Assembly: GCA_027487795.1 (NCBI GenBank)
Contig: JAIYCX010000013.1
Span: 6,148 to 70,147, forward strand
DNA length: 64,000 nt
Source of the DNA: Pseudomonadota bacterium
GTDB taxonomy: Bacteria > Bdellovibrionota_C > UBA2361 > SZUA-149 > DAOLCO01
Direction: 5' to 3'
The notes below the pieces were generated by a model, which did no database searches, was not told the DNA's origin, and saw only the letters and a list, made by a program, of their open reading frames with translations. This document shows, one piece after another, positions 7,415-32,654 of this stretch (position 1 is the first letter of the stretch; every line of letters starts with the position of its first letter). The translations under genes and the position numbers were made by a program.

Positions 7415-7435
7415 TTTATTTCCTTATTCCTTGCC

Positions 7436-7801: not shown

Positions 7802-7804
7802 TAA

Positions 7805-10567: not shown

Positions 10568-10609
10568 ATTCCCTTCCCAAATCGAGATATTTTACAATCA
10601 AGGAGTTTT

Positions 10610-11089: not shown

Positions 11090-11097
11090 ATAAATTC

Positions 11098-11631: not shown

Positions 11632-11653
11632 CTAAGAACTGTTACTAAACTTA

Positions 11654-12832: not shown

Positions 12833-12883
12833 GGCCTCTTCCGTTTCCTTACAACTACTTCTTATTCACTGAATTCTTACACA

Positions 12884-13672: not shown

Positions 13673-13725
13673 AACTATTACCTTTCTACTACACTATTTA
13701 GACTGTTGATTTGCCTGCACATTCC

Positions 13726-14463: not shown

Positions 14464-14511
14464 ATTAGCTATACCCTTCGCATGTTACCTTATTACAACC
14501 TATAGTCAGCC

Positions 14512-14931
14512 CTATTTCCTGTTTTGCTCCACTGCATCTGTAAATTGTCTGGAATGTGTTGGAAACATTTGAGAAAATCCCATTTTTGCAAACTTTGTAT
14601 TCTTAGGAATTTCTCTTAGCGGAGCCCCACTCCATAGCGGCTGAAGCTTTGAAGGAATTGGGATCCCCGGAGGTGGAAAGCCAAACGTAGTAGCAACGGC
14701 ATTTCTAACTCCTCTTTCCTGATCCGGAAATGACTTTCTCATAGAAGCTAATGTTACAGCGGTCATAATCCCACCGATCAACATAAAAGGCATTGCCCGA
14801 GCGACACTGTCCGCAAATAAACTTATCAACATAAACACAGCAAGAGCACATCCCCATTCCATCATATTAGCCCCCATAAAGGACCAATTTTCATCTAACC
14901 CTTGAAGAACTTCCCCGTCATCGTACCTCAT
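14512..14931 (-). CDS. TraL/VirB3-like small membrane protein
   Basis: Two TM segments; directly upstream of the traE-like gene. Confidence 0.5.
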   Translation of the reverse strand: MRYDDGEVLQGLDENWSFMGANMMEWGCALAVFMLISLFADSVARAMPFMLIGGIMTAVTLASMRKSFPDQERGVRNAVATTFGFPPPGIPIPSKLQPLWSGAPLREIPKNTKFAKMGFSQMFPTHSRQFTDAVEQNRK

Positions 14932-14988
14932 AACTCCTCCTGTTTTATTTAAAAGCCTGTTTTCTTTCGAATTAAGCTAAAAATTAAA

Positions 14989-16128
14989 TTAATTCTCAGT
15001 GCCTAATTCTTCACTAAAATCTGGCTCTAAAATCTTATCCCCTGCATTTGCCCTTTCACTTCCTTCTAAAACTTTCTTAGCATTTGCTGTTTGCGCCTCT
15101 ACCTTAGCAGCTGTTTCTCTAGAAGTTTCTAGAGTATTATCAACTTTCTTATCTGCTATTTTGTTTTGTATTCTTTTTGAAAGTTCATCAGAAAGAATTT
15201 CATCATTTTCAGCAGCATTAACAGCCTCGCTCTTAGAATCTTTTAAAGTGCTATCAATATTAGAGTCAATTTCTCCTTCCAAAGATAACTCCTTAGGCGA
15301 CTTAACTGTCATATCGCTAGGTATTTCTTGAAGAATTTGTTTGTTCTCTATTAATTTAGCATCATTAACTTTTTTTGATTTTTCTTCTACACTTGGTAGT
15401 AGATCATCAGAGAATGCTGGCTCATCCCCAGGAAGTACCTCAGTTGGCATAGCCCTGCTGCTGCCCTTACCACTCTTGGCCTCAACTGCAACTTCACCTG
15501 ACTGATCTGCTTGCTCAAAATCTGCATCTACTGGTACAGCTAATTCCTTTGGAATTTCCAAGCCTTTTGATATTTTAGATGTATTCTTATCCCCTCTTCC
15601 TGATTGGCCTTGCGTTTGTCCTAACTCTTGAATATTTGAACTATTCGCATCACCGCCAAATAAAGATTCTCTTTTTGATGTTTTTGCAGCGAGTCTTGCT
15701 CTTTCTCCGACATCACTTCTAGATTTAGCACCTTCTGCTACTACCGGAAGTCTTTCCTTCTCACGTCTCATAAATCTAGGCGGAACTCTAAATACAGCTC
15801 CTTCTCTTGTCACTCTAGGCTTTGGATCAATTACTCTGTTTAGTTGTTCCGTTAAAGAAACAACTCTAAGTCTCCAATCTTCTGAGTCAATTAGCAGATC
15901 TGGACGCGCATACTTTTTGGACTCTTCGAATTCTTCAAGAGCCTCTACTAATAATGCCCTTGCACGACTCATATGAGCCTTAGCGACAGTAGCTCTTTGC
16001 TTACTTGCATACTGCTGCCCTGCCATACTTTCTTCCGCCTTCACCGTTATAGAAGAAATACTAAAAAAAGAAGGCACTACAGTAAAAAGCATTGCCCTTA
16101 AAACCAAATTTTTTCTTGAAAGACTCAT
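14989..16128 (-). CDS. Exported hypothetical protein, first gene of the T4SS operon
   Basis: Signal-peptide-like N-terminus, helical domain, long acidic low-complexity tail. Confidence 0.6.
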   Translation of the reverse strand: MSLSRKNLVLRAMLFTVVPSFFSISSITVKAEESMAGQQYASKQRATVAKAHMSRARALLVEALEEFEESKKYARPDLLIDSEDWRLRVVSLTEQLNRVIDPKPRVTREGAVFRVPPRFMRREKERLPVVAEGAKSRSDVGERARLAAKTSKRESLFGGDANSSNIQELGQTQGQSGRGDKNTSKISKGLEIPKELAVPVDADFEQADQSGEVAVEAKSGKGSSRAMPTEVLPGDEPAFSDDLLPSVEEKSKKVNDAKLIENKQILQEIPSDMTVKSPKELSLEGEIDSNIDSTLKDSKSEAVNAAENDEILSDELSKRIQNKIADKKVDNTLETSRETAAKVEAQTANAKKVLEGSERANAGDKILEPDFSEELGTEN

Positions 16129-16453
16129 ATCTTAGACATTCCAATCAATTGTTTAACCACCCTTAACCAAACTGCGGTCCCACCTTCACGCATAGTGACT
16201 ACACTCACAGCCTCAAGAAGTTATAATGAGTTTAAGCATTTGTGTGACACGACTGAGAGTATATTTTCATTTTTTTACTCATTTTAAATAATATAGGGCA
16301 CTTATTTTATAAATTACCGCATAAAGAAGTAGTTGAAAAATTACTGGTTTTACTTGCTATTAAATTTGGAAGTGATGTAAACTCCCGAATGTATACTAAA
16401 CTTCAATAAAACTTGTTGTTTCACAATTTAGGTTTATCTATAAAAGGTTCACG

Positions 16454-18646
16454 TTGAGCATAGATTTCGGAAAAAGAATATCAGATCTCAAAAAACAGAC
16501 CGAAGAAAGTCAGTCTGGTCGTTGGCGGCTGCGCCCTGTCGCATTCCTTAGTATTTTCGTTTTTATTATACTTAGATATACTATACTTCCTACAATTGAC
16601 GTTCCTGAAGACAAGAATTTAGAAGGACAATCTAATAGTGCAGCCAATAGTATAGAAGCTCAGGAAGACTACTGGATTAAAGAAATTAAAGTAGTAATAA
16701 AAGACAGAGTTAGATTCCTATCAAACTCCCCCTTAGTTCTTGTTCCATTCAGCTCTAGTATTTATTCTAGCTTAGCAAGTACCCTTGATCAAAGATTCGA
16801 ATTAAGAAGTGCAAAAAAATCTATTGAAGAGTCCGAATTACCATTCACCTTCTCAGATCTACCAATATGGTGGAACAGACTAGCAGTAAGTGGAGTATTA
16901 AGAATAGTATTTGTACTTTTGTGTGCGATACCATATTGGATTCTTGGAGTAGTTGCAGGCCTTGTCATAATAAGGACACATAGAAAACAAAAACCAAGTG
17001 ATACATTACTAGGAGTTTGTGATAGAAAAACTGGTCCTTTCTATTCTGGCATCTATGGCCCTTACAGACCTAACGGAAATGTAAGCGCTACTGACCTATC
17101 ATGCCCAGGACTCGCATGCCCACAGATGTCTCCATTAAGCGAAGCAGAAAGTCATCCCTTAGCTAGCTTACTAAAAAGTCATGGCGCACTTAACGATACA
17201 AATAAAGAACTTCTTAGAATCATTCTTGCCCACAAAGACTTTCCTCATGGTGTAGAAGAAGAAAATTCTATCCAAAGAGAAGAAATAGAAAATCCATATG
17301 ACTTAGAAAATAGAGTCTCAAAAACTAACTTTACTCCAAAGGGCGGACTTACTTTAATTCAAGGTACTTCTGATTATCTTCCTGCTTTACTTGATGCTCA
17401 TGCTATCGCAAAAAAGTATGTTGACTCTCTTATTAAAAAAGCAATCAAAGTAGAAGCACTAGATGCTAATTATCCTGGACATATCGCCGCCCTACTTCAA
17501 ATGTCTGCAAGTTGCTCAGTTCTAACTAAACGATTACTCACATCTCTCACTCCAAGAAGACTCTGGGCTCTTGCTACTATCGACTGCAATATGGTCATTA
17601 GTAGCTTCCTAGCAGCAGAGGCAGGAAAAGCGCTAGTATATAAAAGACTCGGAGAAGGATTCACTACTATCTCTATGTATCCACATCTGCAAGCTAGAGC
17701 GGTATTAAATTCAATAGTACCTTTTCATAAAGAATATGACGGCGACCAAAGACTAATTCTAAGACAGGCGATAATATCTTCAAGAAGACACGGAGATTTT
17801 GGAAGATCATTTCTACCAATAAGAATGTCTATTCAAAGTAGAGCAATCAGAGACATATTAGAAATTCTATATATGGAATCTTCTAAACAAGAAGAAATTG
17901 CAAACCTAGTAGAACTTGATGGCCACATTGAAGAAGTACATTCAAATTTCAAAATGAACTACGTTGAAAAAATAAGAGAAGGAGATCACGTCCAAGACTT
18001 ATCAAAAAAGAGTCATGAACTAAGCAAAGGCTTAAGCCATAAATCAGTAGTACTTCTTCCACTAGAAAAACTAATTGAATTCTCACTTAAAGGTTTCCAT
18101 GAACAAAGACTAGATAGAATTTTAAAGTTACTAGATCTAACTAGAAAATTCCAATCTCAAATTAGCACTTCTGCAAGACTTCCTGGATTTAAAAGACAAG
18201 CTATGGAAGCTGACAAGAGCGGAGAAGAGAGCGATCCAATTGTACAAAAATTATACCAGTACAAAAATGGAAAAGAATTAGTAAGAAAATGGCGAATAGC
18301 TAGAAGAATGTTAATTAGGTTTAATTGGCTATCAACAAGAATTGGAGACGATTCCGTTCCTATTATTGGACTTGTTCATGGACTAATTAAACACAGAGAT
18401 AAAACTAATATTCCTAAATTTTTATTCCTAGATGCCCTAGTGCCGCTAAGACAACGTAGATACGCAGAAGTACTTGGCAAAAACTGGGAGCACAATTACT
18501 ACCGCTACAGTCCTTATCAAGATAGCGTAGAAGTTTTTATCAGCACTAGTGACTATGAACGAAAAAGTAAATCAAAAGACGCAGCTCCTGCCCCTAGTGC
18601 AATACCGGCAGAAGAAAGAATGATGATGGCAGTAGGGGAAAATTAA
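16454..18646 (+). CDS. Large membrane-anchored protein upstream of the coupling protein
   Basis: 730-aa ORF with TTG start; N-terminal TM segments and a cytoplasmic helical domain; 26-nt gap to the T4CP gene. Confidence 0.65.
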   Translation: MSIDFGKRISDLKKQTEESQSGRWRLRPVAFLSIFVFIILRYTILPTIDVPEDKNLEGQSNSAANSIEAQEDYWIKEIKVVIKDRVRFLSNSPLVLVPFSSSIYSSLASTLDQRFELRSAKKSIEESELPFTFSDLPIWWNRLAVSGVLRIVFVLLCAIPYWILGVVAGLVIIRTHRKQKPSDTLLGVCDRKTGPFYSGIYGPYRPNGNVSATDLSCPGLACPQMSPLSEAESHPLASLLKSHGALNDTNKELLRIILAHKDFPHGVEEENSIQREEIENPYDLENRVSKTNFTPKGGLTLIQGTSDYLPALLDAHAIAKKYVDSLIKKAIKVEALDANYPGHIAALLQMSASCSVLTKRLLTSLTPRRLWALATIDCNMVISSFLAAEAGKALVYKRLGEGFTTISMYPHLQARAVLNSIVPFHKEYDGDQRLILRQAIISSRRHGDFGRSFLPIRMSIQSRAIRDILEILYMESSKQEEIANLVELDGHIEEVHSNFKMNYVEKIREGDHVQDLSKKSHELSKGLSHKSVVLLPLEKLIEFSLKGFHEQRLDRILKLLDLTRKFQSQISTSARLPGFKRQAMEADKSGEESDPIVQKLYQYKNGKELVRKWRIARRMLIRFNWLSTRIGDDSVPIIGLVHGLIKHRDKTNIPKFLFLDALVPLRQRRYAEVLGKNWEHNYYRYSPYQDSVEVFISTSDYERKSKSKDAAPAPSAIPAEERMMMAVGEN

Positions 18647-18672
18647 GAAGCTCAAGAAAATTAAAAAGAACT

Positions 18673-21159
18673 ATGGCTAGACAATATATAATAGACGACT
18701 TTACTGCAAAGCTTGCACAAAAAAGACACAATCTGACAACTCTTGTCATGGGTGCCTTTATTGGTAGTTTGGTTTTTTGCATTACTTCTTTCTCACAAAA
18801 AATTACTCCCTTTGGATTACTTTTTATTACAGGAATCATTCCACTTTTTTCTTTACTAATATTAACTTTTGTAAATGCTCATCATCGTTGGCTTGAACAA
18901 GAAAGAAATAAAGAATCAGCTCGTAGAGGTGGAAAGCCAGTTCTAGGAATGCCACCACAAAGAAGAGCATTTGACGAAGCCCTTAAAGAAGCAAGAGACA
19001 AGGGCAAACCGATGATTGATAAATATCTAGTAGGCTTTGAACTAGACTCAGGAGCTCCGATCTGGGTAACAGATGATGAAATCTGTAGTCACGGCGCAGT
19101 ATTTGCAAAAACAGGTGTTGGAAAAACTCTTTGGCTTGAAGGCTTAATGTTTCAACAAATGGCTAGAGCTAGGGCTAGTGGCTTTACATTTATTGATGCT
19201 AAAAGAGATCCCGGAACTCTTGCTGATATTATCATGATGGCCTTAATTACTGGCCGAATTGAAGACTTAATAGTAATAGACCCATTTGATCCAGTTTGCT
19301 CATACAATTTTGTTTTTACTACTCAAAGAGCAGATGTAAAAGCAAGAAAAATTTTACGTTGCGGTCTTCCTCCGACATCTGACCAAAGCAGCACTAAACA
19401 CTACGACAGACTAGCAGCTGATGCTGTATATAGAGTAGTACGCGCAATGGAGAGTCTAGGTCTTGCCTGGTCAGTACGTGATATCGCCGTTGCTCTATCT
19501 GCTTTTAACTTTGCGTATCCAAGAATGAGAGATCTACTTCATGAGCAAGGTTCAAAGCAGGCGATGATAGAACTTGGACACATGGCTAGTTCTTATAGAA
19601 ATTTAAAAGGAGCATTAGATTCTACTAAGCTCACAGAAAATTTAAGAGGTATAGCCTCAGAACTACATTCGATAGCAAACTCCGATGCTGGAGAAATGTT
19701 CTGCGTGCCAAGAGCTGATCTATCATTAACAGATGCGATACTTAGAGGAAAGATTGTCTATTACATGCTTCCAAGACTTGAAGAAGCTGAAAGTGCTGCA
19801 AGAATGATTAAAGTCTTTAGAGAAGACTTAGAAGTTTCCATTGGTGAAGTTACATCTAGTAGAAGTCATCACTTAGAAGATCCACATTTAGTTATCATTG
19901 ACGAAGGTGCCTCTACATTCGGTCCAACGTGGGCAAATCTTTTCGAACTTGCAAGAAAAGGTAGATTTTCGCTACTATTTGGAGCTCAGTCAGTGGGTGG
20001 TCTTATGGATCAGTCGATGGGACTTAGTGAACAATTTTACGAACGAGTTATTGCGAACGTAAACCTCAAAGTTATCATGAGAATTGGTGATAATAAAACG
20101 GCAGAGGATATGTGCGAGTGGATCGGGAAAATTAATTATACGAAAAAAACTATCGCAACGGGTATGTCTACAAGCTTATCCGCACGTGAACTTACTAAAC
20201 ATCTAGAGTTTAATAAAAAATCTGCAGATGGTTTCAGAGATGGTGTAACGTACGCTGAAGATGAAACAGATCTAGTAAGTGCAGAAGAACTTAAACATGA
20301 AATGTCAGCTGAAAAAGGTCTAGCTTGGTTTGACAAAGGAGATGGCAGACTTCGAAAAGGTAGAGCAATTTGGTTTGATGCAGATCTACCTCCAACTTGG
20401 GAAGGAAGAGAATTTCTAACAAGATACGAAGCTGTAGAAGCTGATGAAATAGGGCTTGCCGAATGGGTAGATGAACATATTCTATCAATCGAACGATCAG
20501 AAGCTAGAAAAAAAGGAGGAGACTCTGAAGGCGGCTCAGGAATTAGAGATAACTACAGTAGTGGCTCCGATAGACCACCACCAAAAGGCACTGATATATA
20601 CGGTCAAATTACCGGAGGGCAAATTACTAAAAATGAAGGAAGCTCTACAAATCTACTAAAAGACAAGGAAGATTATAGCGGAGGATTTAGAGTCAATATG
20701 CTAAAAGGCATAAAAGGCTTTGCAGGAAAGAAAGCTACTATTTTTGGTAAAGAACCTGTAGTATTTGATAATTCAAACGCTACGAAAGAGTCTACTAAAG
20801 AAGAGGTAAAAGAAGAAATATTACCTCAAGAGCAAGAAACAAATAAAAATATTGAAAGTTTGAAAAATAATGCAGTGCCAGAGCAAAAAAATCAAGATAA
20901 AAAGGCACTAGAAGAAAATAGATCTCATAACAGAGGAGGCGGATTGCGGTTTGGCTCAGATAAAGAATCTGATTCAAATAGCTCTACCGGTGGATTCAGA
21001 GCAGGGGTCCATAAAGGTACAGTATTAATAGAAACAAAAAATTCTACTAATACTAGGAGCTTGAAACCTGCTCAGTTAGGAGAAAAAGGTAAGGAAATAG
21101 ATAGTAATAAAGAAAAAGTAAAAGAGAAAGTTGACAAGTTTCCTAATAAGAGGAAATGA
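18673..21159 (+). CDS. Type IV coupling protein (VirD4/TraD family) with a long C-terminal extension
   Basis: Two N-terminal TMs, Walker A AKTGVGKT, FIDAKRD, Walker B VIIDEGA, ARKGRFSLLFGAQS. Confidence 0.85.
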   Translation: MARQYIIDDFTAKLAQKRHNLTTLVMGAFIGSLVFCITSFSQKITPFGLLFITGIIPLFSLLILTFVNAHHRWLEQERNKESARRGGKPVLGMPPQRRAFDEALKEARDKGKPMIDKYLVGFELDSGAPIWVTDDEICSHGAVFAKTGVGKTLWLEGLMFQQMARARASGFTFIDAKRDPGTLADIIMMALITGRIEDLIVIDPFDPVCSYNFVFTTQRADVKARKILRCGLPPTSDQSSTKHYDRLAADAVYRVVRAMESLGLAWSVRDIAVALSAFNFAYPRMRDLLHEQGSKQAMIELGHMASSYRNLKGALDSTKLTENLRGIASELHSIANSDAGEMFCVPRADLSLTDAILRGKIVYYMLPRLEEAESAARMIKVFREDLEVSIGEVTSSRSHHLEDPHLVIIDEGASTFGPTWANLFELARKGRFSLLFGAQSVGGLMDQSMGLSEQFYERVIANVNLKVIMRIGDNKTAEDMCEWIGKINYTKKTIATGMSTSLSARELTKHLEFNKKSADGFRDGVTYAEDETDLVSAEELKHEMSAEKGLAWFDKGDGRLRKGRAIWFDADLPPTWEGREFLTRYEAVEADEIGLAEWVDEHILSIERSEARKKGGDSEGGSGIRDNYSSGSDRPPPKGTDIYGQITGGQITKNEGSSTNLLKDKEDYSGGFRVNMLKGIKGFAGKKATIFGKEPVVFDNSNATKESTKEEVKEEILPQEQETNKNIESLKNNAVPEQKNQDKKALEENRSHNRGGGLRFGSDKESDSNSSTGGFRAGVHKGTVLIETKNSTNTRSLKPAQLGEKGKEIDSNKEKVKEKVDKFPNKRK

Positions 21160-21742: not shown

Positions 21743-22690
21743 GTGACATCAAAAATTAGTAGTACCAAGAATTTTCTATCCTCGGTACTACTAGCCTCAA
21801 GACCTAAAACACTCACTGCCGCAATCTCCCCTGTTATAGTGGGAGCATCCCTTGGCATAAAAAAACTAGATCAACAAATAGGTCAAGAAAATCTAGATCA
21901 CTCATCAATATTATCTTCTCTAGGACTTTTCCTAGTAATAACTCTCACCGCAATACTAATTCAAATCTTAACAAACCTAGTTAATGATCTCTGGGATTTT
22001 AAATCAGGAAAAGATACTAGTGATAGAATAGGACCAAAAAGAGCCGTCCAAGCTGGACTTATTACTCCAGAAAAAATGTTCAAAGTAATATCTTTTTTAA
22101 CAATACTTATTACCACACTTGGACTCTATCTAGTAACTGTTGGCGGATATCCAATTTTAATAATTGGAATACTCTCTATCATATCAGCATACGCTTACAC
22201 CGCAGGACCTTACCCTTTAGCATATAACGGATTAGGAGATATCTTCGTTCTAATTTTCTTCGGCCCCGTTGCCGTAATGGGCACTGAGTATCTATTTACT
22301 AATTCTTTCTCACTTGACGCTGCATTACTAGGACTAGTCTTAGGATGCGCTGCTGTTAATCTTCTAATAATAAACAACACCAGAGACATCGCAGAAGATA
22401 CAAAAACAAATAAAAGAACTCTAGCAGTTCGATACGGAAGAAATTTTTGTAATTTAGAATTTGAACTAGCTTTTATTTTACCAATTTTATTTTTATTATT
22501 TTTTGGCCAGATTTATGTTTTAAGTTTTAGTTCTTGGCTTTTGATTATTTATTTAATTTGGTCGTTGTATTTTTATAGGTCTAAGTTTTTTAGTTTGAGA
22601 CAGGCGGAGGATTTTAATAAATACTTAGGTGTCATGGGAAGGTATTTATTTCTTACTGGGGTGGTTTGTTGTGTGAGTGTTTGGTTGTGA
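21743..22690 (+). CDS. menA: 1,4-dihydroxy-2-naphthoate polyprenyltransferase
   Basis: RPKTL.AA..PV, NDLWDFKSGKD, YTAGPYPLAYNGLGD, NNTRDI.ED....KRTLAVR.G motifs. Confidence 0.92.
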   Translation: MTSKISSTKNFLSSVLLASRPKTLTAAISPVIVGASLGIKKLDQQIGQENLDHSSILSSLGLFLVITLTAILIQILTNLVNDLWDFKSGKDTSDRIGPKRAVQAGLITPEKMFKVISFLTILITTLGLYLVTVGGYPILIIGILSIISAYAYTAGPYPLAYNGLGDIFVLIFFGPVAVMGTEYLFTNSFSLDAALLGLVLGCAAVNLLIINNTRDIAEDTKTNKRTLAVRYGRNFCNLEFELAFILPILFLLFFGQIYVLSFSSWLLIIYLIWSLYFYRSKFFSLRQAEDFNKYLGVMGRYLFLTGVVCCVSVWL

Positions 22691-22848
22691 AAAAGAGCTC
22701 GGGTTTTAAGAATTAAAAGCTCACGACCAAGTATGGCCCCCAGTTCGCGCTGGAACATACTTTGCATAGCAAAGTGGTTTCCAGCGTCTCACCCACTCCG
22801 CTCCTCCGCCTCTACAGCTTTTAATTCTTAAAACCCGAGCTCTTTTTC
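22689..22848. mobile_element. MITE-like element with 33-bp perfect terminal inverted repeats
   Basis: GAAAAAGAGCTCGGGTTTTAAGAATTAAAAGCT (22689-22721) is the exact reverse complement of 22816-22848; nested internal hairpin at 22748-22786. Confidence 0.75.
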
Positions 22849-22933
22849 TTTATGTAATTTGTTTTACTTGGTTTTTTTTCTAATTTGTAATTACTCTTAC
22901 TTTTATCTATTCTTCACTATATTATTCATATCG

Positions 22934-23039
22934 GTAGAAGAATTCACTCCTGTTTTATTATTGCAGCTAAATTATTAGCTATACAATAAAAGAACAGGGG
23001 CTTTATAAATGGTTTTTTACTTTTTACTCCTGGGTCTGG
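22934..23039 (+). promoter_or_regulatory. Conserved structured leader, copy 1 of 4
   Basis: 106-nt gap-free repeat also at 24134, 25688 and 27975; long imperfect hairpin CTCCTGTTTTATTATTG...CAATAAAAGAACAGGGG. Confidence 0.75.
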
Positions 23040-23063
23040 AAGCGAAAGAAAAGGTTTGCTACT

Positions 23064-23639
23064 ATGAAATGTTATACTATTGGCATCTCCCATGACGGCT
23101 CTTATGAAGTCAATCCTGGAATTGAATTCATAAAAACAGAGAATCCTCTTGTCGGTACGGTAGTCTTTGGAGAATTTGAAGTTCCAGTTGACCTTCCTGA
23201 AGGCTTTGAAGGGACGTCGTTACATAATGTAATGATTTTTATAGAAGGTGAAAAACCTAATTTAATCGCAGGATTAATTGTTAATGATGTTTTTAATTAC
23301 TTTGCTGATGCAGATGAAGAAATTATTCATGAAGTAGTCTTAAAAGCTATTACCGAAGAAGTTAATTTGCCAAGGGTTCTCTTGCTAATCAAAATTGTAG
23401 GTGAATTAGAAAATATAAATGGTTTGAATCAGATTTACGATTGGTCTAGCATTCTAAATGACAAAGATACTTATGGATCCGTGAGCGAGACTGGAGACTC
23501 TTATCTTCTATCTGTTCACACAAATCATTTCGTAGAAGACTTTGAGCTAGCTGAATTTAACTTTAACATCACATTTAACGAAGAAGGTATCCCTCAAATT
23601 AAAGTAACAGAAATCGACGATGGTACCGAAGAAGAATAA
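23064..23639 (+). CDS. Acidic cassette protein, paralog 1 (unknown family)
   Basis: 191 aa; shares MKC.TI, GI.F..T, LP..F.G and a C-terminal G.P motif with the other copies. Confidence 0.75.
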   Translation: MKCYTIGISHDGSYEVNPGIEFIKTENPLVGTVVFGEFEVPVDLPEGFEGTSLHNVMIFIEGEKPNLIAGLIVNDVFNYFADADEEIIHEVVLKAITEEVNLPRVLLLIKIVGELENINGLNQIYDWSSILNDKDTYGSVSETGDSYLLSVHTNHFVEDFELAEFNFNITFNEEGIPQIKVTEIDDGTEEE

Positions 23640-23694
23640 GAAAAAGACAGTATTTAACAAATAAGTTTGTCTTTTATGTTCTAAAACTTAACTA

Positions 23695-23764
23695 AGAGAG
23701 TCTCTTTTCCAATAGAGACTCTCTCAAACAAGGTTATTATATTTTTCCATAAAGCCTCTGTTCT
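23695..23764 (+). repeat. Cassette trailer 1: AGAGAGTCTC hairpin plus a leader-complementary segment
   Basis: 11-bp stem at 23695-23724; ATAAAGCCTCTGTTCT at 23749-23764. Confidence 0.75.
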
Positions 23765-23817
23765 AATTCTATTAATCCTCTAATTCTGATTCAATTTTTT
23801 GTTTTAAGTGTTTATCT

Positions 23818-23861
23818 AAAGAGCTGGGGTTTTAAGAATTAAAAGCTTTCAACCAAGTATG
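23818..23861 (+). repeat. Truncated left end of the 22689 MITE
   Basis: AAAGAGCTGGGGTTTTAAGAATTAAAAGCT followed by ...ACCAAGTATG, as in the intact element. Confidence 0.7.
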
Positions 23862-23891
23862 CATATTATCAATCTAACCAAAACAACCACC

Positions 23892-24073
23892 GTCATCCCT
23901 GTGAAAACAGGGATCCAGGACAAGATAAATAAATACTGGATTCCCGCCCCTGCCTTCGAGTCTATCCGAGTAATCAGAAATTATTGTTTCCACATCCGTC
24001 TTCCTCGCGAAAGCGGGGATCCAGGCCTTTAAAATAATTAGATTTCCTGGGTCCCTGCCTTCGCAGGGATGAC
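23892..24073. repeat. Cluster of REP-like palindromes in inverted pairs (BIME-like)
   Basis: GTCATCCCTGTGAAAACAGGGATCCAG at 23892, partial CTGGATTCCCGCC at 23936, GTCTTCCTCGCGAAAGCGGGGATCCAG at 23998, CTGGGTCCCTGCCTTCGCAGGGATGAC at 24047. Confidence 0.8.
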
Positions 24074-24133
24074 GAGTGGATATTTGTAACTACTATTATT
24101 TTAGAATATAGTAAGCAAAAATAATTCATATCA

Positions 24134-24239
24134 GTAGAAGAAATCACTCCTGTTTTATTATTGCAGCTAAACTATTAGCTAAACAATAAAAGAACAGGGG
24201 CTTTATAAAAGGTTTTTTGCTTTTTTCTCCTGGGTCTGG
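24134..24239 (+). promoter_or_regulatory. Conserved structured leader, copy 2
   Basis: 100 of 106 positions identical to copy 1 by manual count. Confidence 0.75.
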
Positions 24240-24262
24240 TGTTTAATTAGGAAATAAATATC

Positions 24263-24841
24263 ATGAAGTGCTGGACTATTAGCATAAAAAAAAGTGGAGA
24301 ATATGACGTCACCGAGGGAATTAAATTCGAAAGAACAGAAGATCAAGAGATCGGTCTACTCAAAGCTGGTGGATTAGAAACTGAAATATTACTTCCTAGA
24401 AATTTTCAGGGAGAAGTAATGAAGAGCGCCTTACTTTATAAATGTCCTGAAAAATGCCTTCTACTGGGAGGGAAAATTGTTCAAGATATTTTAGGTCATA
24501 AAGAATCTGAATATCAGTGGAATTCGAAAGGTCAGGTCTTTCTAGAATTAGTAAACGATCAAGATCATGACTCACCCTTTATTTTGATTCACATTGAGCT
24601 AGAGGATGTGCTTATAGAAAAAGAGGATTACTATTTAAACGGCTTGAATGAAATTGAGAGTGATAACTCTTCATATTCTAGCTTCTCGGAGGACTATACC
24701 TCTTACTTAGTGTTTACTAGAACTTCTAATTTTAGTGAATATTTTGAATCGAGTAATTTCGATATTAGTATAGGACTAAATGAAAAAGGTACTCCTGAAG
24801 TTACAATATATGAAGATGAGGACGAGGATGAAAATATTTAG
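24263..24841 (+). CDS. Acidic cassette protein, paralog 2
   Basis: 192 aa; MKCWTI...GIKFERTE...LLPRNFQG...NEKGTPEV. Confidence 0.75.
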   Translation: MKCWTISIKKSGEYDVTEGIKFERTEDQEIGLLKAGGLETEILLPRNFQGEVMKSALLYKCPEKCLLLGGKIVQDILGHKESEYQWNSKGQVFLELVNDQDHDSPFILIHIELEDVLIEKEDYYLNGLNEIESDNSSYSSFSEDYTSYLVFTRTSNFSEYFESSNFDISIGLNEKGTPEVTIYEDEDEDENI

Positions 24842-24880
24842 CTAAATGATTTCCTTATCTAATTTGATACTTTATTTAGT

Positions 24881-24943
24881 AGAGAGTCTTTTATTCTTGA
24901 AAGACTCTCTCAAAATGGTTGTTTTATTTTATTAAAGCCCCTT
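24881..24943 (+). repeat. Cassette trailer 2
   Basis: Stem AGAGAGTCTTT/AAAGACTCTCT (compensatory change versus copy 1); TAAAGCCCCT at 24934-24943. Confidence 0.7.
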
Positions 24944-24986
24944 ACTTTGCATCTTGACTTGATACATATTCTGGTATCGTATCTAC

Positions 24987-25255
24987 ATGATACGAAATTT
25001 TCGTAATATTGGAACTCGAGATGTTGCCTTAGGACTAAATACTAAAGCAAGTAGATTGTTACTTCCAGCTTCTCTACATAATAAGGCACAAATAAAGATT
25101 GCGTAAATTGACTTTGCTCATTCCATAGAAGATTTAAAACATCCCGGAAATAGATTTCATCTATTAACTCAGTATCATTAAATAGTCAGTATCGTATTTG
25201 CTTTAACTGGTCGCTTGGCGAAGCCTTAGATATAGAAATAGTAGACTATCATTAG
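24987..25255 (+). pseudogene. higB: HigB (RelE/ParE-like) toxin pseudogene
   Basis: MIRNFRNIGT...KAQIKIA, then TAA at 25104; PGNRFH, then a frameshift into NSQYRICFNW...DIEIVDYH*. Confidence 0.8.
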
Positions 25256-25279
25256 TATTAAAAAATATTAGGTAATATT

Positions 25280-25578
25280 ATGACAAAAAAAGATTTTTAT
25301 ATTGATATCCATCCGGGAGAAATTCTTGCTGGGATACTTGAAGATGCAGAGCTTTCTCAGTCAGATCTTGCCAGAGCTATTGGATCTTCTCGCAGAGTAA
25401 TTAGTGAAATATGCACAGAAAAAGGGGCATCTCTGCCAAAATGGCTTTTAAGCTTGGAAAAGCACTAAACCAAAGTCCACATTTCTGGATGAATGCACAA
25501 AAAAATTGGGAACTAGCTCAAGTTGATAAGAGTATTATAAAAAAAGTTCAACGGATTCATGGTTCTAAGGCGGCTTAG
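25280..25578 (+). pseudogene. higA: HigA antitoxin, frameshifted
   Basis: IHPGEIL...LSQSDLARAIG. One extra A in the A5 run at 25419-25423 restores KRGISAKMAFKLGKALNQSPHFWMNAQ...KAA*. Confidence 0.78.
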
Positions 25579-25687
25579 AAAAGAATATTTTAATTTTTAA
25601 CAGTAGTTTTTTATTTTGTTTTATTTACATTTTATTCAAAATTGTAACTTTAGTTAATATAGAATATACTTCGTAAAATTATTGTAG

Positions 25688-25793
25688 GTAGAAGAATTCA
25701 CTCCTGTTTTATTATTGCAGCTAAATTTTTAGTTAAACAATAAAAGAACAGGGGCTTTATAAAAGGTTTTTTACTTTTTACTCCTGGGTCTGG
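25688..25793 (+). promoter_or_regulatory. Conserved structured leader, copy 3
   Basis: Same 106-nt repeat. Confidence 0.75.
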
Positions 25794-25815
25794 TTTTTAG
25801 GCAAAGGGAAATATT

Positions 25816-26415
25816 ATGATATTAAGTATGACAACAATGAGTTTTTGGACAATTTGTCTTAACGAAAATGGCCAAAATGTAGTTCAAGAAGGAATTGAAT
25901 TTGAAAGGACAGACAACCCATTATTAGGAATACTAAATGCAGGTGGAATCCAAATGCATATAGAGCTTCCTCCTAATTTTGAAGGAAAGATGTTGAAGTA
26001 TCCCTCTCCAATTCTTAACGATAGCCAATTTATTGATTTAGAGTACAAGGATGTTGATTCACCCTTAACTCTAAAGATTTCTACAAGTACTAAACCTAAT
26101 CGAATCTTGATACAATACAAAATTAATGCCTTCCTCATCAAAGAAGAAGAAAATAGTAATTCTCGCTTCAATCCTTGGGAAGAATTAGAAGATGACGAGT
26201 ACACATATGATTCGATCAGTGCAGATAGAAGCTCCGCTCTACTTTGTTCTAGAACCTTGGATTTTGAGGATCTTTTTTGGGTTAATGGTTTTGAATTTAT
26301 AATTAAATTGGACGAAGACTGTCGACCTATAGTTGAGTTTTTACAAAGTGAAAATGAGTCAGACGTTCATGACCAAAATCAAACAAGCACTGTCGAAGAT
26401 AGTGATCAGGAATAA
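25816..26415 (+). CDS. Acidic cassette protein, paralog 3
   Basis: MSFWTI (ATG 25837) aligns to MKCWTI; GIEFERTDNP...LPPNFEG; acidic C-terminus. Confidence 0.75.
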   Translation: MILSMTTMSFWTICLNENGQNVVQEGIEFERTDNPLLGILNAGGIQMHIELPPNFEGKMLKYPSPILNDSQFIDLEYKDVDSPLTLKISTSTKPNRILIQYKINAFLIKEEENSNSRFNPWEELEDDEYTYDSISADRSSALLCSRTLDFEDLFWVNGFEFIIKLDEDCRPIVEFLQSENESDVHDQNQTSTVEDSDQE

Positions 26416-26449
26416 TATTTAAGTTTTTTTATTTTTTCAAATCCCAAAA

Positions 26450-26601
26450 AGAGAGTCTCCTTAAACCTAAGAGACTCTCTGACGTAAGGTTATTATATTT
26501 TTTTATAAAGCCTCTGTTCTAATTCTATTAATTCTCTTATTCTGATTCGATTTTTGTTTTAAGTGATTATCTAAAGAGCTCGGGTTTTAAGAATTGAAAG
26601 C
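26450..26601 (+). repeat. Cassette trailer 3 with extended tail and MITE left-end copy
   Basis: Hairpin at 26450-26480, TTTTATAAAGCCTCTGTTCT at 26501-26520, and a tail closely matching 23695-23847 ending in AAAGAGCTCGGGTTTTAAGAATT. Confidence 0.75.
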
Positions 26602-26619
26602 CATAGAAATTAACTGAGA

Positions 26620-27801
26620 TTAATTAAAAAGATCCTTAATTGCAGATTGCCAGTTTAGAAATCGAATTCCATTTTCCTCTCTTGGGCTGTCAATTCTTGA
26701 AACTACCCATAGCTCTGGTGACTTAAAATCATTTTTAAAATTCAATAAATGCCTGGCATCTTCTATTCTAACATTCTGCTGAGATTTTATTTCAATAAGA
26801 ATTATCCTCTCCTTACTTTCTAAAATTAAATCAATCTCTGAGCCATCTTTTGTAATTAAGTAAGATAGCTTGTATCGTTTTCTACTGTATTCATTGTGCT
26901 TTAAGACTTCTAGTATAAAAAAATGCTCAAATAGTCTTCCGTAAGATGAGGTACCGGGCATAACGTCGTTACCGAGAGTACCTTCTAATGCGCGAATTAC
27001 ACCAATGTCAAAAAAGTAAAATTTAGGGCTTTTACCTTGCTGTTTGCGCACAGATTTCTGATATGGCAATAAAAAAAAGCCCAATAAAGTATCTTCTAGT
27101 ATTTGAAAATATCTAGCGACTGCCTTTGAATCAACGTTACAGTCGTTCCCGATTTTTGAGTAGTTAACAATTCTTCCACTAGATTGAGCAGCAACTTCTA
27201 GAAAACGATTAAACGGATCTAAGTTTCTAACAATTTGCTCTTCTCTAATCTCTTCTCTTAAATAAACTGCAATATAAGTTTGTAATTGCTCTTCTCGAAC
27301 AGAGTTATTTTTCTGAGAAGCAATTGCTGGCAACATACCCCACTCAAGGGCTGTTCTTAAATCAAACTCATTTCCTATTTCATAAGCAGACAAGGGGAAA
27401 AGATTATTCAGTAGCGCCCTCCCAGCAAGCAGATTCGCAGACCCTCTTTTTAATTTCCTAGCACTTGATCCTGATAGTGCGAATTTAATTTTACCACTGA
27501 AGTCTGGATCTTCTAACATGTCGTGTACTTCGTTTAATAAGGCTGGAACTCTTTGTATTTCGTCAATTACTATCCACGAATGAGTAGAACTCTCCTGTTG
27601 ACGTAGTGCCTCTTTAATTTCTTGACGTAGCAATGAAGGATTCCTTTGATACTTAAGGAATTCCATATCCTTCAATAGATTAACCCATTTAAGAGTCTCT
27701 TGATTTAGATAATCCCTTAAAAACCAAGTTTTACCAACTCCTCTAGCTCCGAGGAGAAGAAAACTCATATCTTTTAATGGCTTAGAGAGTCTATGGTACA
27801 T
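26620..27801 (-). CDS. AAA+ ATPase with a DUF4143-type C-terminal domain (COG1373-like)
   Basis: Walker A GARGVGKT, IDEIQRVP, SGSSA, GRA, PKFYFFDIG, EIDLILE...IEIKS. Confidence 0.85.
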   Translation of the reverse strand: MYHRLSKPLKDMSFLLLGARGVGKTWFLRDYLNQETLKWVNLLKDMEFLKYQRNPSLLRQEIKEALRQQESSTHSWIVIDEIQRVPALLNEVHDMLEDPDFSGKIKFALSGSSARKLKRGSANLLAGRALLNNLFPLSAYEIGNEFDLRTALEWGMLPAIASQKNNSVREEQLQTYIAVYLREEIREEQIVRNLDPFNRFLEVAAQSSGRIVNYSKIGNDCNVDSKAVARYFQILEDTLLGFFLLPYQKSVRKQQGKSPKFYFFDIGVIRALEGTLGNDVMPGTSSYGRLFEHFFILEVLKHNEYSRKRYKLSYLITKDGSEIDLILESKERIILIEIKSQQNVRIEDARHLLNFKNDFKSPELWVVSRIDSPREENGIRFLNWQSAIKDLFN

Positions 27802-27974
27802 ATGTCTAATATAGCCGATAAATTAGACATATGCAACCGAAATTAGCGTACTTTAATATAGCATTATATACACTAATAATATAATAAATTATAATATCGC
27901 CATATCCTTATGTTTTTCTTCAAAATTGCGAGTATTTTTATTTTTAATTATCGGTAACTAAATAATTCATAACG

Positions 27975-28080
27975 GTAGAAGAATTCCCTCCTGTTATATT
28001 ATTGCAGTTAAATTCTTAACTAAACAATAAAAGAACAGGGGCTTTATAAAAGGTTTTTTACTTTTCACTCCTGGGTCTGG
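27975..28080 (+). promoter_or_regulatory. Conserved structured leader, copy 4
   Basis: Same 106-nt repeat; apical stem AGTTAA/TTAACT instead of AGCTAA/TTAGCT. Confidence 0.75.
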
Positions 28081-28105
28081 AAGCGAAAGAAGAAGGTTTT
28101 TTGCC

Positions 28106-28448
28106 ATGAAATGCTGGACCATTAATCTTGATCTCGGTGGAGATTATAACTGTAACTTAGGTCTTGCCTATGTAAGAGGCAAGACCTCACAATATTGCAT
28201 ATTACTCACTCTATAAATTTGAAAGATGTGCTGAATCTAAAACATTCGGGTGGCATGAATTGAAAGATGACCACAATACATACTCATGTATGGCTGTAGA
28301 CCAGAGGTCTTGTTTGTCATGCTTACATCAATTCTGTCCCCCTGACATCTTTAAATTAGGAGATTGCGAATTCAGAGTCACTGTTGATGAATTCGGTATT
28401 CCATCAGTTAGCTATAAAAATGCCGTTGAAAAAGTAATAATGGTATAA
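28106..28448 (+). pseudogene. Decayed cassette protein, paralog 4
   Basis: ATG 28106 MKCWTINLDLGGDY, stop at 28214; the 28260-28448 frame retains the C-terminal match (FRVTVDEFGIPSV); about 240 nt shorter than the intact copies. Confidence 0.72.
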
Positions 28449-28468
28449 ACTTCCGTGTATTCAAAAAA

Positions 28469-28534
28469 AGAGAGTCTCTTTAAACATAAGAGACTCTCTG
28501 AGATAAGGTTATTATATTTTTTTAATAAAGCCCC
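28469..28534 (+). repeat. Cassette trailer 4
   Basis: 12-bp stem AGAGAGTCTCTT/AAGAGACTCTCT; ATAAAGCCCC at 28525-28534. Confidence 0.72.
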
Positions 28535-28573
28535 ATTTTTAAATAGATCACGAACACTTGTGCAACTTCTTCT

Positions 28574-28605
28574 AGCGTAGGAGATTCAAATTAATCTCCT
28601 ACGCT
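28574..28605. terminator. Strong hairpin downstream of the sigma factor gene, possible terminator
   Basis: 13-bp perfect stem AGCGTAGGAGATT/AATCTCCTACGCT; no clear U-tract. Confidence 0.45.
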
Positions 28606-28621
28606 CATAATAAACCTATCA

Positions 28622-30118
28622 TCAATCAAATTTAGCCAATTGTCCCAAACTATTTGTTGGCTCTAAATCAATAAGACTAGCTAGATGCTGAGCTCGATGT
28701 GGCTGTTGCAATTTCTTGATAGCCCTATCTTCTATTTGCCGAATTCTCTCTCTGGTAACCTTAAAAATATCAGCAAGTTCTTGCAAAGTAAAATCGTAAC
28801 CATCTCCTATACCAAAACGCATTTTTATAATTTCACGTTCTCGGTAATTTAATGTTTTCAGCATTTCATTGATTTTTGAACTTGCTTCATTCTTAATAAA
28901 ATCATTAGATTCATCTGCAGATCGATAATCTTCTACGTATTCTCCGTAAGAGCTCTCTTGATCTTCTCCAACGGAGTAGTCTAGTGAGAAAGGCGTACGC
29001 ATATGATTTTGTAGAAAGCGAACATGATCTTCTTTAAGTTCAGTATATTGAGCAATCTCATCAACAGAAGCTTCACGACCCAATTGTTGCTCTAGATCCT
29101 TTCCTACTTGACGGACCTTACTCATAGTCTCTATCATATGAACAGGAACTCTTATCGTCCTGCTTTGATCAGATATCGCACGTAAGATACTTTGCCTAAT
29201 CCACCAAGTTGCATAAGTAGAAAACTTAAGTCCACGCAGGTATTCAAACTTATCAACAGCCCGCATGAGTCCACTATTGCCTTCTTGAATTAGCTCAAGC
29301 AAAGAAAGACCTCGGTTCCGATACTTTTTGGCAATTGAGACAACTAAACGCAAATTAGCGCTCGCCATATATTTTTTGAGGTTTACAAAACGACAGCGCG
29401 CAGATTCTATTTTTTGAACAAGACGATTCAAGCTCTTCCTGGTTTCTCCTGTTAATCGAAGAAGATAAATCAACTCCTGTCTTTTTTCTCTCTTAAGTCC
29501 TCTTTTAAGTCCTTCTTTTTGAAGCTCTGCATCAAGTGTATTTACTCTTTTACAATATTGCTTCAAATTTCCAACAAAAGGCTCAAGTCTTGCTGTTCTT
29601 AAAGCACATTCATCAACTAACCGACGACCTTTCATCCTGAGTCTCAATGCTCTCTTCCTAGCATCCTTCCGAGTAGAAATCTCATTCTTTGAATTTGTGG
29701 CTTCATTAAAAAAAGCGTCGCTCTTAGAAATCAACTCTCTAAGAGTCTTCACATTAGAAGGAAGTTTACGTATCAATTTAACTTTTAAGTCTTGCTTATT
29801 CGCGGAGACATCAAGATTTCGATCTAATCGCAACGTGTCGTTTAAGACATCTCTTAGAATTTTATTAGCACAAGTAAGAATAAATTGATTACCTAACATC
29901 CAACCACGATAGACAAACCTAGCTTCCTCAATTTGTTTCGCAAGACTACGCTCTTCTTGCCGCGATAATAAAGGAATCGACCCCATCTGAACTAGATAAA
30001 GCCTAACAGGATCTTCATACATATAGTCATCTGAAGTACATTCAGGCGACTCATCTTCAAAACATCGAACTTCATCATCAACAGTAACTTCTTCGTCATC
30101 AACAATATCTTCAAACAT
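28622..30118 (-). CDS. Sigma70-family (RpoD-like) sigma factor with a long non-conserved region
   Basis: Region 1.2 [16 protein letters not shown], region 2 [13 protein letters not shown]...LIQEGN...[12 protein letters not shown], region 4 TRERIRQIE; likely start ATG 30118. Confidence 0.92.
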
Positions 30119-30346
30119 TCTATTATTCCTTCCATAGAGGAAAAGAGAAAAAACCAAAATTTTTTAAACCTTACTAATCACACAAGTGATTCGTGTTCAC
30201 ATATCTAGTAAAGCAAGCTTCTAAATATTTAAACACGAATCAAACTTAACAAATCTACCCAACTAATTTTAGCAGAAAATACATCAAGTACTATGGTAAG
30301 TAAATTATCATAAGCTAACTAAGGTCCTCTTTTTATAATAAGACCC

Positions 30347-32631: not shown

Positions 32632-32654
32632 AAATTTTATACTGAGAAATTATA

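What the first reader, a model, noticed from the sequence alone, without database searches (positions are those of the whole stretch)
22934..23039. The leader shows covariation and mutually exclusive structures, like a conformational switch
Seen: the apical 6-bp stem with a 4-nt loop is AGCTAA/TTAGCT in copies 1-2, AGCTAA/TTAGTT (G-U) in copy 3 and AGTTAA/TTAACT (double compensatory change) in copy 4, with variable loops. The segment CAGGGG can pair with the upstream CTCCTG, with a second downstream CTCCTG (in TTACTCCTGGGTCTGG), or with the trailer. Inference: a candidate novel cis-regulatory RNA with three competing partners. A palindromic DNA site for a dimeric protein is the alternative.
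Basis: partly seen in the sequence, partly recalled or inferred. Interest (0 to 1): 0.7.

Follow-up and report, generated by a model that had tools for sequence, protein, structure and literature searches.

The report
Shared hairpin leader of four paralogs
A 106-base non-coding block with a long hairpin stands almost unchanged in front of four very divergent copies of an orphan acidic-protein gene in an uncultured freshwater bacterium. It is most likely a shared 5' leader or regulatory module, but the proposed three-way RNA switch is not supported, and only four copies exist to test it.

Summary
A 106-nt block (22934-23039) recurs four times on the + strand at 91-96% identity. Each copy ends 22-25 nt before the start codon of a paralogous ~191-aa acidic orphan protein, and these proteins are only ~30% identical. 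The block contains a 54-nt imperfect hairpin (P1) whose apical stem carries one double compensatory change and one G-U change. A conserved TTGnnA-17-TAnnnn promoter-like pair lies 17-21 nt upstream of every block, so the block is probably transcribed as a 5' leader. The covariation rests on a single event: the shuffle control reaches it in 132-135 of 500 trials, and my placement simulation gives P of about 0.03-0.09 for P1. The alternative pairing CAGGGG:downstream CUCCUG is invariant, so it is uninformative. It is also 2-10 kcal/mol worse, has pair probability of 0.008 or less, and its inner hairpin is broken by 3 of 4 changes. There is no Rfam match. No homologue was found in GTDB genomes, JGI metagenomes or IMG/VR. 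The protein family has no members outside this lineage, so a proper covariation test is impossible now. Verdict: a real, lineage-specific conserved leader/upstream module. A hairpin is plausible, the switch is unsupported, and a DNA-level role is not excluded.

The parts
22934..23039 (+). Conserved block, copy 1 (the finding): GTAGAAGAATTCA + hairpin P1 + U-rich stretch + ACTCCTGGGTCTGG
   Evidence: covariance-model score 133 bits
24134..24239 (+). Conserved block, copy 2
25688..25793 (+). Conserved block, copy 3
   Evidence: Its last 55 nt are identical to the start of metagenome contig L031.
27975..28080 (+). Conserved block, copy 4. It is the most changed copy, with 6 substitutions including the double compensatory one, and stands before a broken gene.
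22947..23000 (+). Hairpin P1 of copy 1. It has 22 pairs in three helical segments (10, 6 and 6 pairs) and a 4-nt loop. CUCCUG/CAGGGG forms a G+C clamp at the base and AGCUAA/UUAGCU forms the tip. The same hairpin lies at 24147-24200, 25701-25754 and 27988-28041.
23027..23032 (+). Second CTCCTG, proposed as the alternative partner of CAGGGG (22995-23000). Invariant in all copies.
22885..22913 (+). Promoter-like TTGTAA-17-TATTCT, 20 nt upstream of block 1. The equivalents are 24084-24112 (TTGTAA-17-TATAGT), 25642-25670 (TTGTAA-17-TATACT) and 27926-27954 (TTGCGA-17-TATCGG, degraded).
   Evidence: This is a consensus match plus positional conservation; it has not been mapped.
23064..23639 (+). Paralogue 1, 191 aa, pI 4.1, orphan family. 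Paralogue 2 is 24263-24841, paralogue 3 is 25816/25837-26415, and the broken paralogue 4 is 28106-28448.
23695..23724 (.). Conserved terminator-type hairpin AGAGAGTCTC..GAGACTCTCT after each gene. It also occurs at 24881-24910, 26450-26480 and 28469-28499. The T-run is on the minus-strand side.
26501..26520 (-). Trailer motif, an inverted copy of the leader's AGAACAGGGGCTTTATAAAA. Shorter versions lie at 23749-23764, 24928-24941 and 28521-28534.

Best explanation
The 106-nt block is the shared 5' leader of a four-gene family of fast-diverging, very acidic orphan proteins. This family was inserted downstream of menA in one uncultured freshwater lineage.

Inferred course of events. Transcription starts about 13 nt upstream of the block, from the conserved TTGnnA-17-TAnnnn promoter. 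The nascent RNA folds at once into the 54-nt hairpin P1, which has an A+U-rich stem with a CUCCUG/CAGGGG clamp at the base. An invariant U-rich, single-stranded tail follows (GGUUUUUUACUUUUUACUCCUGGGUCUGG) and ends 22-25 nt before the start codon.

Not only the pairs but nearly every base is frozen. I therefore infer that the leader is read sequence-specifically by one trans-acting factor, a protein or a small RNA. That factor would set pausing/termination, stability or translation for all paralogues together, with P1 as the structural scaffold. P1 is the dominant fold. The element is not a self-contained three-state switch.

Shown: the repeat, its extreme conservation relative to the flanks and the coding sequence, the hairpin potential, and the position of the promoter-like boxes. 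Inferred: that it is transcribed, that a factor binds it, and what the effect is.
For: There are four copies at 91-96% identity, while the flanks are 25-70% identical and the proteins ~30%. A fifth family member from another metagenome is 63% identical in protein to paralogue 3, yet it carries the last 55 nt of the block with 55/55 identity.

TTGnnA-17-TAnnnn stands at a fixed distance of 17-21 nt upstream in all four copies. TTG and TA(T) are invariant within an otherwise variable stretch.

P1 has pair probability of 0.68-1.0 in all copies. MFE z-scores are -2.7 to -3.0 for copies 1-3 and -2.8 for the whole leader.

Of the 14 substitutions, 9 fall in unpaired columns. Two form the compensatory C-G to U-A change, two give G-U, and one breaks a pair. 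P is 0.03-0.09 for P1 alone and 0.002-0.02 with the outer helix P0. The fit is slightly better for the + strand (P=0.002) than for the minus strand (0.08) or for strict palindromy (0.03).

No frame is open with a usable start in all copies, and the hairpin changes would be non-synonymous, so the block is not coding.
Against: There is no transcript evidence at all: no RNA run holds the locus. Covariation rests on one event and is not significant by the tool's shuffle control. The minus strand folds about as well by z-score.

Near-total sequence invariance is unlike typical structured leaders. It could instead reflect gene conversion between tandem copies or DNA-level recognition. Copy 4 keeps the block although its gene is broken and its -10 box is degraded. 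P1 is not followed by a proper U-tract, so the terminator scan does not call it. The 6-4-6 palindrome at the tip has the geometry of a dimeric-protein operator.
Confidence: 0.45

Rival explanations
1. A double-stranded DNA control region. The AGCTAA-N4-TTAGCT palindrome is an operator for a dimeric helix-turn-helix protein. The rest of the block holds further protein sites and perhaps a weak internal promoter (TAAACA-18-TATAAA). The inverted GGGGCTTTAT motifs at both ends of each gene are sites for the same or another DNA-binding protein.
For: The half-sites are 6 bp with centres 10 bp apart, and the spacer is free to vary. Sequence, not just pairing, is invariant over 106 nt. The motif RGGGCTTTAWWAAA occurs only in this array: 4 times on + in the leaders and 3-4 times on - in the trailers, against 0.5 expected. 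A broken Xre/HigA-type HTH gene lies inside the array. Strict palindromy is also preserved better than chance (P=0.03).
Against: One protein binding all four sites does not predict a symmetric double change; it would weaken both half-sites. The inverted repeat runs for 54 nt with bulges, far longer than an operator. The in-block -10 lacks the final T, so the promoter scan finds nothing inside the block. The best promoter-like boxes lie upstream, which puts the palindrome at about +50. No intact regulator gene is nearby.
Confidence: 0.22
2. Concerted evolution without RNA function. The conserved 5' and 3' flanks are kept alike by gene conversion or recombination between the tandem units, or they serve as recombination handles for exchanging hypervariable genes. 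The 'compensatory' change in copy 4 would then be a quasipalindrome template-switch mutation, which makes inverted repeats more perfect without any selection.
For: The units are tandem and direct, 1.2-2.3 kb apart. Both the leader and the trailer are far more alike than the coding sequence: trailers are 87% identical, proteins ~30%. The block is kept even in front of a broken gene. The region is full of mobile repeats and gene remnants. Template switching at quasipalindromes is an established mutational route (PMC7202029). Conserved upstream boxes with divergent genes and recombination are known in the Borrelia UHB family (Marconi 1996 and Sung 2000, as cited in PMC10016077).
Against: The block has a sharp 3' border at GGTCTGG in all copies and the same extent in all four, which conversion tracts would not give by themselves. 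Differences between copies are private and avoid paired columns. The 55/55 identity in a relative whose gene is 63% identical in protein argues for selection. Conversion and selection are not mutually exclusive.
Confidence: 0.15
3. One reading: a riboregulator that switches between CUCCUG(5'):CAGGGG, CAGGGG:CUCCUG(3') and CAGGGG-region:trailer pairings.
For: All three complementarities exist, and the two CUCCUG copies are invariant. The leader-trailer match is 20 nt in unit 3, and its single mismatch is G.U in the + RNA sense.
Against: The alternative helix has probability of 0.008 or less and costs 2-10 kcal/mol. It never varies, so it carries no comparative information. The hairpin it encloses is broken by 3 of 4 changes, with P=0.13-0.33. 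It has no terminator or anti-SD consequence, and the RBS lies outside the block and differs between copies. The trailer lies beyond the terminator-type hairpin and is reduced to ~10-14 nt in units 2 and 4.
Confidence: 0.07
4. A single-stranded-DNA element. This could be an Frpo/ssi-like hairpin promoter that fires on transferred ssDNA next to the type IV secretion genes. It could also be a hairpin-plus-cleavage-site recognised by an HUH nuclease or relaxase.
For: F-type T4SS genes and a TraD-like coupling protein lie 2-18 kb upstream. The element is repeated upstream of small, very acidic proteins that all face one way, as in plasmid leading regions (PMC11541004). The minus strand folds as DNA with z=-3.2. 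ACTCCTG resembles the YATCCTG nick motif; this comparison is from memory and untested.
Against: The hairpin arm reads TTAGCT-17-GTGAAT, only 3/6 + 3/6 matches to -35/-10, and the stem is too short to hold both boxes (inspection). No relaxase or oriT was recognised. The 730aa-TraD-174aa-MenA block is conserved next to a housekeeping gene in relatives that lack the array, so this is not a plasmid leading region. There is no similarity to known anti-restriction families.
Confidence: 0.04

Closest known systems
Structured 5' leaders / attenuator hairpins of bacterial mRNAs (generic class; no Rfam family)
   Same: It lies between a promoter-like site and the RBS. It has a long stable hairpin with a G+C clamp followed by a U-rich stretch, and it is shared by co-regulated genes.
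   Different: No Rfam family matches. There is no proper U-tract and no supported alternative fold. Sequence conservation is far higher than structure alone would require.
Upstream homology box (UHB) of the Borrelia ospE/ospF/erp paralogous families (Marconi et al. 1996, as cited in PMC10016077)
   Same: A highly conserved upstream non-coding region is shared by paralogous genes whose coding parts are divergent. It is associated with recombination and a common regulation.
   Different: The Borrelia box is a DNA promoter/operator region on prophage plasmids with known binding proteins. Here the element contains a 54-nt hairpin, the genes are tandem chromosomal copies, and no sequence similarity was tested or is expected.
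Frpo/ssi single-strand promoters of plasmid leading regions (PMC11541004)
   Same: These are repeated hairpin-forming non-coding elements upstream of small, same-strand genes near conjugation-type genes.
   Different: There are no -35/-10 boxes in the stem, no oriT or relaxase, the locus is chromosomal and syntenic, and the hairpin is much shorter.
Palindromic operators of dimeric HTH repressors (Xre/Cro type)
   Same: The tip is a 6-4-6 palindrome with a variable spacer.
   Different: The symmetry extends to 54 nt with bulges, there is a symmetric double change in one copy, and no cognate intact regulator was found.

Membership tests
Any Rfam family | Covariance-model match at or above the family's gathering score | tested here: not met
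   The whole window at gathering threshold gives only a tRNA. A permissive E-value scan of 22600-28700 finds nothing on the four blocks.
Riboswitch-like conformational switch | Two mutually exclusive helices, each supported by comparative data or comparable in energy | tested here: not met
   The alternative helix is invariant and so gives no information. Its inner hairpin has 3 breaks in 4 changes. It costs 2-10 kcal/mol and has pair probability of 0.008 or less.
Riboswitch-like conformational switch | An expression platform: a terminator or RBS sequestration controlled by the switch | tested here: not met
   No U-tract follows either helix. The RBS lies outside the conserved block, differs between copies, and has at most ~4 nt of complementarity to CUCCU (inspection).
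Riboswitch-like conformational switch | A conserved core found across taxa | tested here: not met
   There were no true matches in GTDB genomes, JGI metagenome contigs or IMG/VR. Only four copies were found in the window and in its source metagenomes.
Structured cis-regulatory RNA (generic) | Statistically significant covariation | tested here: inconclusive
   One double change and two G-U changes. The shuffle control reaches this in 132-135 of 500 trials. The placement simulation gives P=0.03-0.09 for P1. Four sequences are too few.
Structured cis-regulatory RNA (generic) | The element is transcribed (start site upstream) | not testable with these tools
   Only promoter-like boxes at a conserved distance are available. 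No RNA run holds the locus.
Intrinsic terminator / attenuator | A G+C-rich stem directly followed by a U-run | tested here: not met
   P1 is followed by CUUUAUAAAAGGUUUUUU. The scan, which needs 5 T in 8, does not call it.
Frpo/ssi single-strand promoter | -35 and -10 boxes inside the hairpin stem, and a location in the leading region next to oriT | tested here: not met
   The best reading is 3/6 + 3/6 (inspection). No relaxase or oriT was recognised. The neighbourhood is chromosomal and syntenic in relatives.
Palindromic operator of a dimeric regulator | Symmetric half-sites about one helical turn apart | tested here: met
   AGCTAA-N4-TTAGCT; the symmetry is kept in 3 of 4 copies and is asymmetric in copy 3.
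Palindromic operator of a dimeric regulator | A cognate DNA-binding protein | not testable with these tools
   Only a broken HTH gene lies nearby.
Conserved upstream box of a paralogous gene family (UHB-like pattern) | The upstream non-coding region is much more conserved than the coding region across paralogues | tested here: met
   The block is 91-96% identical against ~30% for the proteins. In a relative the block is 55/55 identical against 63% for the protein.
Integron attC site | R''/R' core sites (RYYYAAC ... GTTRRRY) bounding the folded site, and an integrase nearby | tested here: not met
   GTTAAAC is present only in copy 3; the other copies read GCTAWAC or ACTAAAC. No integrase was seen in the ORFs scanned.

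The most novel reading that the evidence does not exclude
The block is a new class of leader RNA that coordinates a hypervariable family of acidic proteins linked to a type IV secretion system. Its frozen sequence would be read by a dedicated trans-factor. Its 16-20-nt complement in the trailers would pair 5' and 3' ends, or neighbouring transcripts, as part of the control. That would amount to a real multi-partner switch.
Probability: 0.1. Interest if true: 0.55.

Novelty: new member of a known kind. Interest (0 to 1): 0.3.

Why it matters
If the leader is functional, it would show how an uncultured lineage ties several fast-evolving, possibly secreted or anti-defence-like proteins to one control signal. 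It would also add an unclassified RNA or DNA motif. In practice its reach is small. It is known from four copies in one organism and one fragment in a relative. The genes it precedes have no homologues among about 15 billion proteins. Nothing can be tested further without transcript data or more genomes of the lineage.

Tried and rejected
- **Homologue searches for a real covariation test.** The block pattern gave only chance hits in GTDB genomes (28 single hits, about what I estimate chance alone would give), in JGI metagenome contigs (2 unrelated hits) and in IMG/VR (0). A covariance model of the block found only the four copies in the window and nothing in syntenic relatives. Logan contigs of five metagenomes show only variants that belong to copies 1-4.
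- **Protein route.** A single-sequence search, a profile search and an exhaustive HMM search found only the window's paralogues plus one JGI protein. That protein's contig starts inside the block.
- **Synteny route.** Homologues of the upstream gene (MenA) led to two syntenic contigs, but an unrelated secreted protein follows MenA there.
- **Function of the proteins.** Pfam, PHROGs and PDB gave no hit. The AlphaFold model is poor (pLDDT 56.7), and Foldseek found nothing below E=0.1.
- **Organism.** The MITE probe and the full-length sigma-factor search found no close genome. The sigma core is nearest to Planctomycetota (62-67%), while the named MenA hits include Oligoflexia, so the organism is left open.
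- **Readings rejected by inspection.** These were a sigma-54, sigma-28, ECF or sigma-32 promoter, a leader peptide or minus-strand ORF, an integron attC site, and terminal repeats of a MITE. The MITE reading fails because the flanks of the block are themselves homologous.
- **Other dead ends.** Whole-length duplexfold of leader against trailer was uninformative.

Full report
**What is there.** The finding (22934-23039) is copy 1 of a 106-nt non-coding block. The block occurs four times on the + strand: 22934-23039, 24134-24239, 25688-25793 and 27975-28080. The copies are 91-96% identical to each other. The 40 nt before them are 38-70% identical and the 24 nt after them 25-67%.

Each block ends 22-25 nt before the start codon of a paralogous gene. 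The genes are 23064-23639, 24263-24841 and 25816/25837-26415, plus a broken fourth copy at 28106-28448. In that fourth copy a stop follows 36 codons and the C-terminal part lies in another frame. The three intact proteins are only ~30% identical. They are extremely acidic, with pI 4.1-4.25 and 38-41 Asp+Glu against 8-16 Lys+Arg.

After each gene come two more conserved features. The first is a terminator-type hairpin, AGAGAGTCTC..GAGACTCTCT, whose T-run is on the minus-strand side. The second is an inverted copy of part of the leader, AGAACAGRGGCTTTATAAAA. This copy is 20 nt in unit 3, 16 nt in unit 1, and ~10-14 nt in units 2 and 4.

**Check of the observation.** The two CTCCTG copies and CAGGGG are invariant. 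The 54-nt hairpin P1 (22947-23000 in copy 1) has 22 pairs. It is the dominant fold, with pair probabilities of 0.68-1.0. The core folds better than dinucleotide shuffles, with z of -2.7 to -3.0 in copies 1-3 and -1.2 in copy 4. The whole leader gives z = -2.8.

The comparative evidence is thin:
- There is one pair changed on both sides (C-G to U-A in copy 4), two one-sided changes to G-U, and one broken pair.
- The shuffle control reaches this in 132-135 of 500 trials.
- RNAalifold's covariation term is +0.25.
- I placed the 14 observed substitutions at random. For P1 alone this gives P(at most 1 broken pair) = 0.03-0.09 and P(at least one double compensatory change) of about 0.04.
- With an added outer helix P0, P falls to 0.002-0.02. 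However, P0 was chosen after the fact and competes with another weak hairpin.
- The + strand fits slightly better than the minus strand or strict palindromy: 0.002 against 0.08 and 0.03.

So a conserved hairpin is suggested but not demonstrated.

**The switch.** The alternative pairing CAGGGG:3' CUCCUG is possible on paper. However, it has an ensemble probability of 0.000-0.008. Enforcing it costs 2.0 kcal/mol in copy 4 and 6.9-10.5 kcal/mol in copies 1-3. It never varies, so it carries no comparative information. The small hairpin it encloses is broken by 3 of its 4 changes, giving P = 0.13-0.33.

Neither helix is followed by a U-tract. The ribosome-binding region lies outside the conserved block and differs in every copy. 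No expression platform is therefore visible. The trailer complement is real, but it lies beyond the terminator-type hairpin and is short in two of the four units.

**Is it transcribed?** A TTGnnA-17-TAnnnn pair stands 17-21 nt upstream of every block: TTGTAA-17-TATTCT, -TATAGT and -TATACT, with TTGCGA-17-TATCGG before the broken gene. TTG and TA(T) are invariant within an otherwise variable stretch. This places a probable start about 13 nt before the block and makes the block a 5' leader of ~140 nt. No promoter-like site passes the scan inside the block. No RNA run holds the locus, so this remains an inference.

**How widespread is it?** There is no Rfam match, even at permissive thresholds. 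Pattern scans of 596 Gb of GTDB genomes, of JGI metagenome contigs and of IMG/VR gave only chance hits. A covariance model finds only the four copies. Contigs of the source metagenomes show no variants beyond copies 1-4.

The protein family is an orphan. Profile searches of 5.8 billion clusters and of 1.84 billion representatives return only the window's own paralogues and one JGI protein, P0004. That protein is 63% identical to paralogue 3. Its 1055-nt contig begins inside the block, and the 55 nt it holds are identical to copy 3. Its trailer is ~87% identical and its MITE ~93% identical. The block is thus the best conserved part of the unit, also between organisms.

**Context.**
- The gene just upstream (21743-22690) is MenA.
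- Further upstream lie a TraD-like coupling protein and F-type T4SS genes (TraC, TrbI and a weak TraV match). No relaxase was recognised.
- In two metagenome contigs whose MenA is 57-60% identical, the order 730aa - TraD-like - 174aa - MenA is kept. There an unrelated secreted 190-aa protein follows, and no block is found. The array is therefore a lineage-specific insertion downstream of menA.
- The array sits among MITE-like repeats (22689-22848 and half copies), REP-like hairpins and a broken HigA-type gene.
- The organism is unplaced. Its sigma-70 core is nearest to Planctomycetota (62-67%), while the named MenA relatives include Oligoflexia.

**Interpretation.** The best reading (0.45) is a shared, transcribed leader with P1 as a selected hairpin. 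Because nearly every base is frozen, not only the pairs, I infer sequence-specific recognition by a common trans-factor acting on pausing, stability or translation. The rivals are:
- **A DNA-level control region (0.22).** The 6-4-6 palindrome has operator geometry, and the inverted GGGGCTTTAT motifs bracket every gene.
- **Concerted evolution or recombination handles (0.15).** The 'compensatory' change would come from quasipalindrome template switching (PMC7202029). This resembles the upstream homology box of the Borrelia erp families (cited in PMC10016077).
- **A single-stranded-DNA element such as an Frpo-like promoter (0.04; PMC11541004).** The chromosomal synteny, the lack of a relaxase and the poor -35/-10 boxes speak against it.

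**Verdict.** This is a real, strongly conserved, lineage-specific upstream module that is not in any library. The hairpin is plausible and the switch is unsupported. Interest is modest.

Noticed in passing
window 22689-22848; half copies 23814-23847, 26569-26607; L031 805-975: A MITE-like ~160-nt element with perfect 33-nt terminal inverted repeats (GAAAAAGAGCTCGGGTTTTAAGAATTAAAAGCT). Its depth in the source metagenome contigs is about 6-8 times that of unique DNA. It is ~93% identical in a contig from another metagenome and absent from GTDB representative genomes.
   Followed up: partly
window 23064-23639, 24263-24841, 25816-26415, 28106-28448: A family of ~191-aa, very acidic proteins (pI ~4.1) with acidic C-terminal tails. 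It has no homologue outside this lineage among ~15 billion proteins, and no Pfam, PHROG or PDB match. The charge is reminiscent of DNA-mimic or secreted proteins, but nothing supports a function.
   Followed up: yes
window 28106-28448: The fourth paralogue is broken. MKCWTINLDLGG... stops after 36 codons, and the family's C-terminal motif continues in another frame with an internal deletion. Its promoter-like -10 box is also degraded (TATCGG), yet the block in front of it is kept.
   Followed up: yes
window 25280-25578: A frameshifted HigA/Xre-type helix-turn-helix gene lies between units 2 and 3 (HTH_3, E=2e-4, below the cut-off). It is a toxin-antitoxin remnant. It could once have been a DNA-binding regulator, but it is not intact.
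   Followed up: partly
window 23890-24074: REP-like hairpin units (CGTCATCCCTG..CAGGGATCCAGGA) occur in direct and inverted orientation between units 1 and 2. They share the 9-mer TCCTGGGTC with the 3' end of the block, probably by chance.
   Followed up: no
window 4505-21159; L115, L116: An F-type T4SS gene set (TraC, TrbI, weak TraV) sits next to a TraD-like coupling protein and an unannotatable 730-aa protein, with no recognisable relaxase. The 730aa-TraD-174aa-MenA order is conserved in two distant metagenome contigs. The system therefore looks like a stable chromosomal feature rather than a recent conjugative element.
   Followed up: partly
window 23695-23724, 24881-24910, 26450-26480, 28469-28499: The conserved hairpin after each paralogue has its T-run on the minus-strand side. 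In units 3 and 4 it lies 120-140 nt past the stop codons of convergent genes (the DUF4143 ATPase and the sigma factor). It probably serves as a bidirectional terminator.
   Followed up: partly
window 28622-30157 and 30403-38645: A 511-aa sigma-70 family factor whose conserved core is closest to Planctomycetota (62-67%). It is followed by a PBP1c and a 1996-aa bacterial alpha-2-macroglobulin pair. The taxonomic position of the organism remains unresolved.
   Followed up: partly
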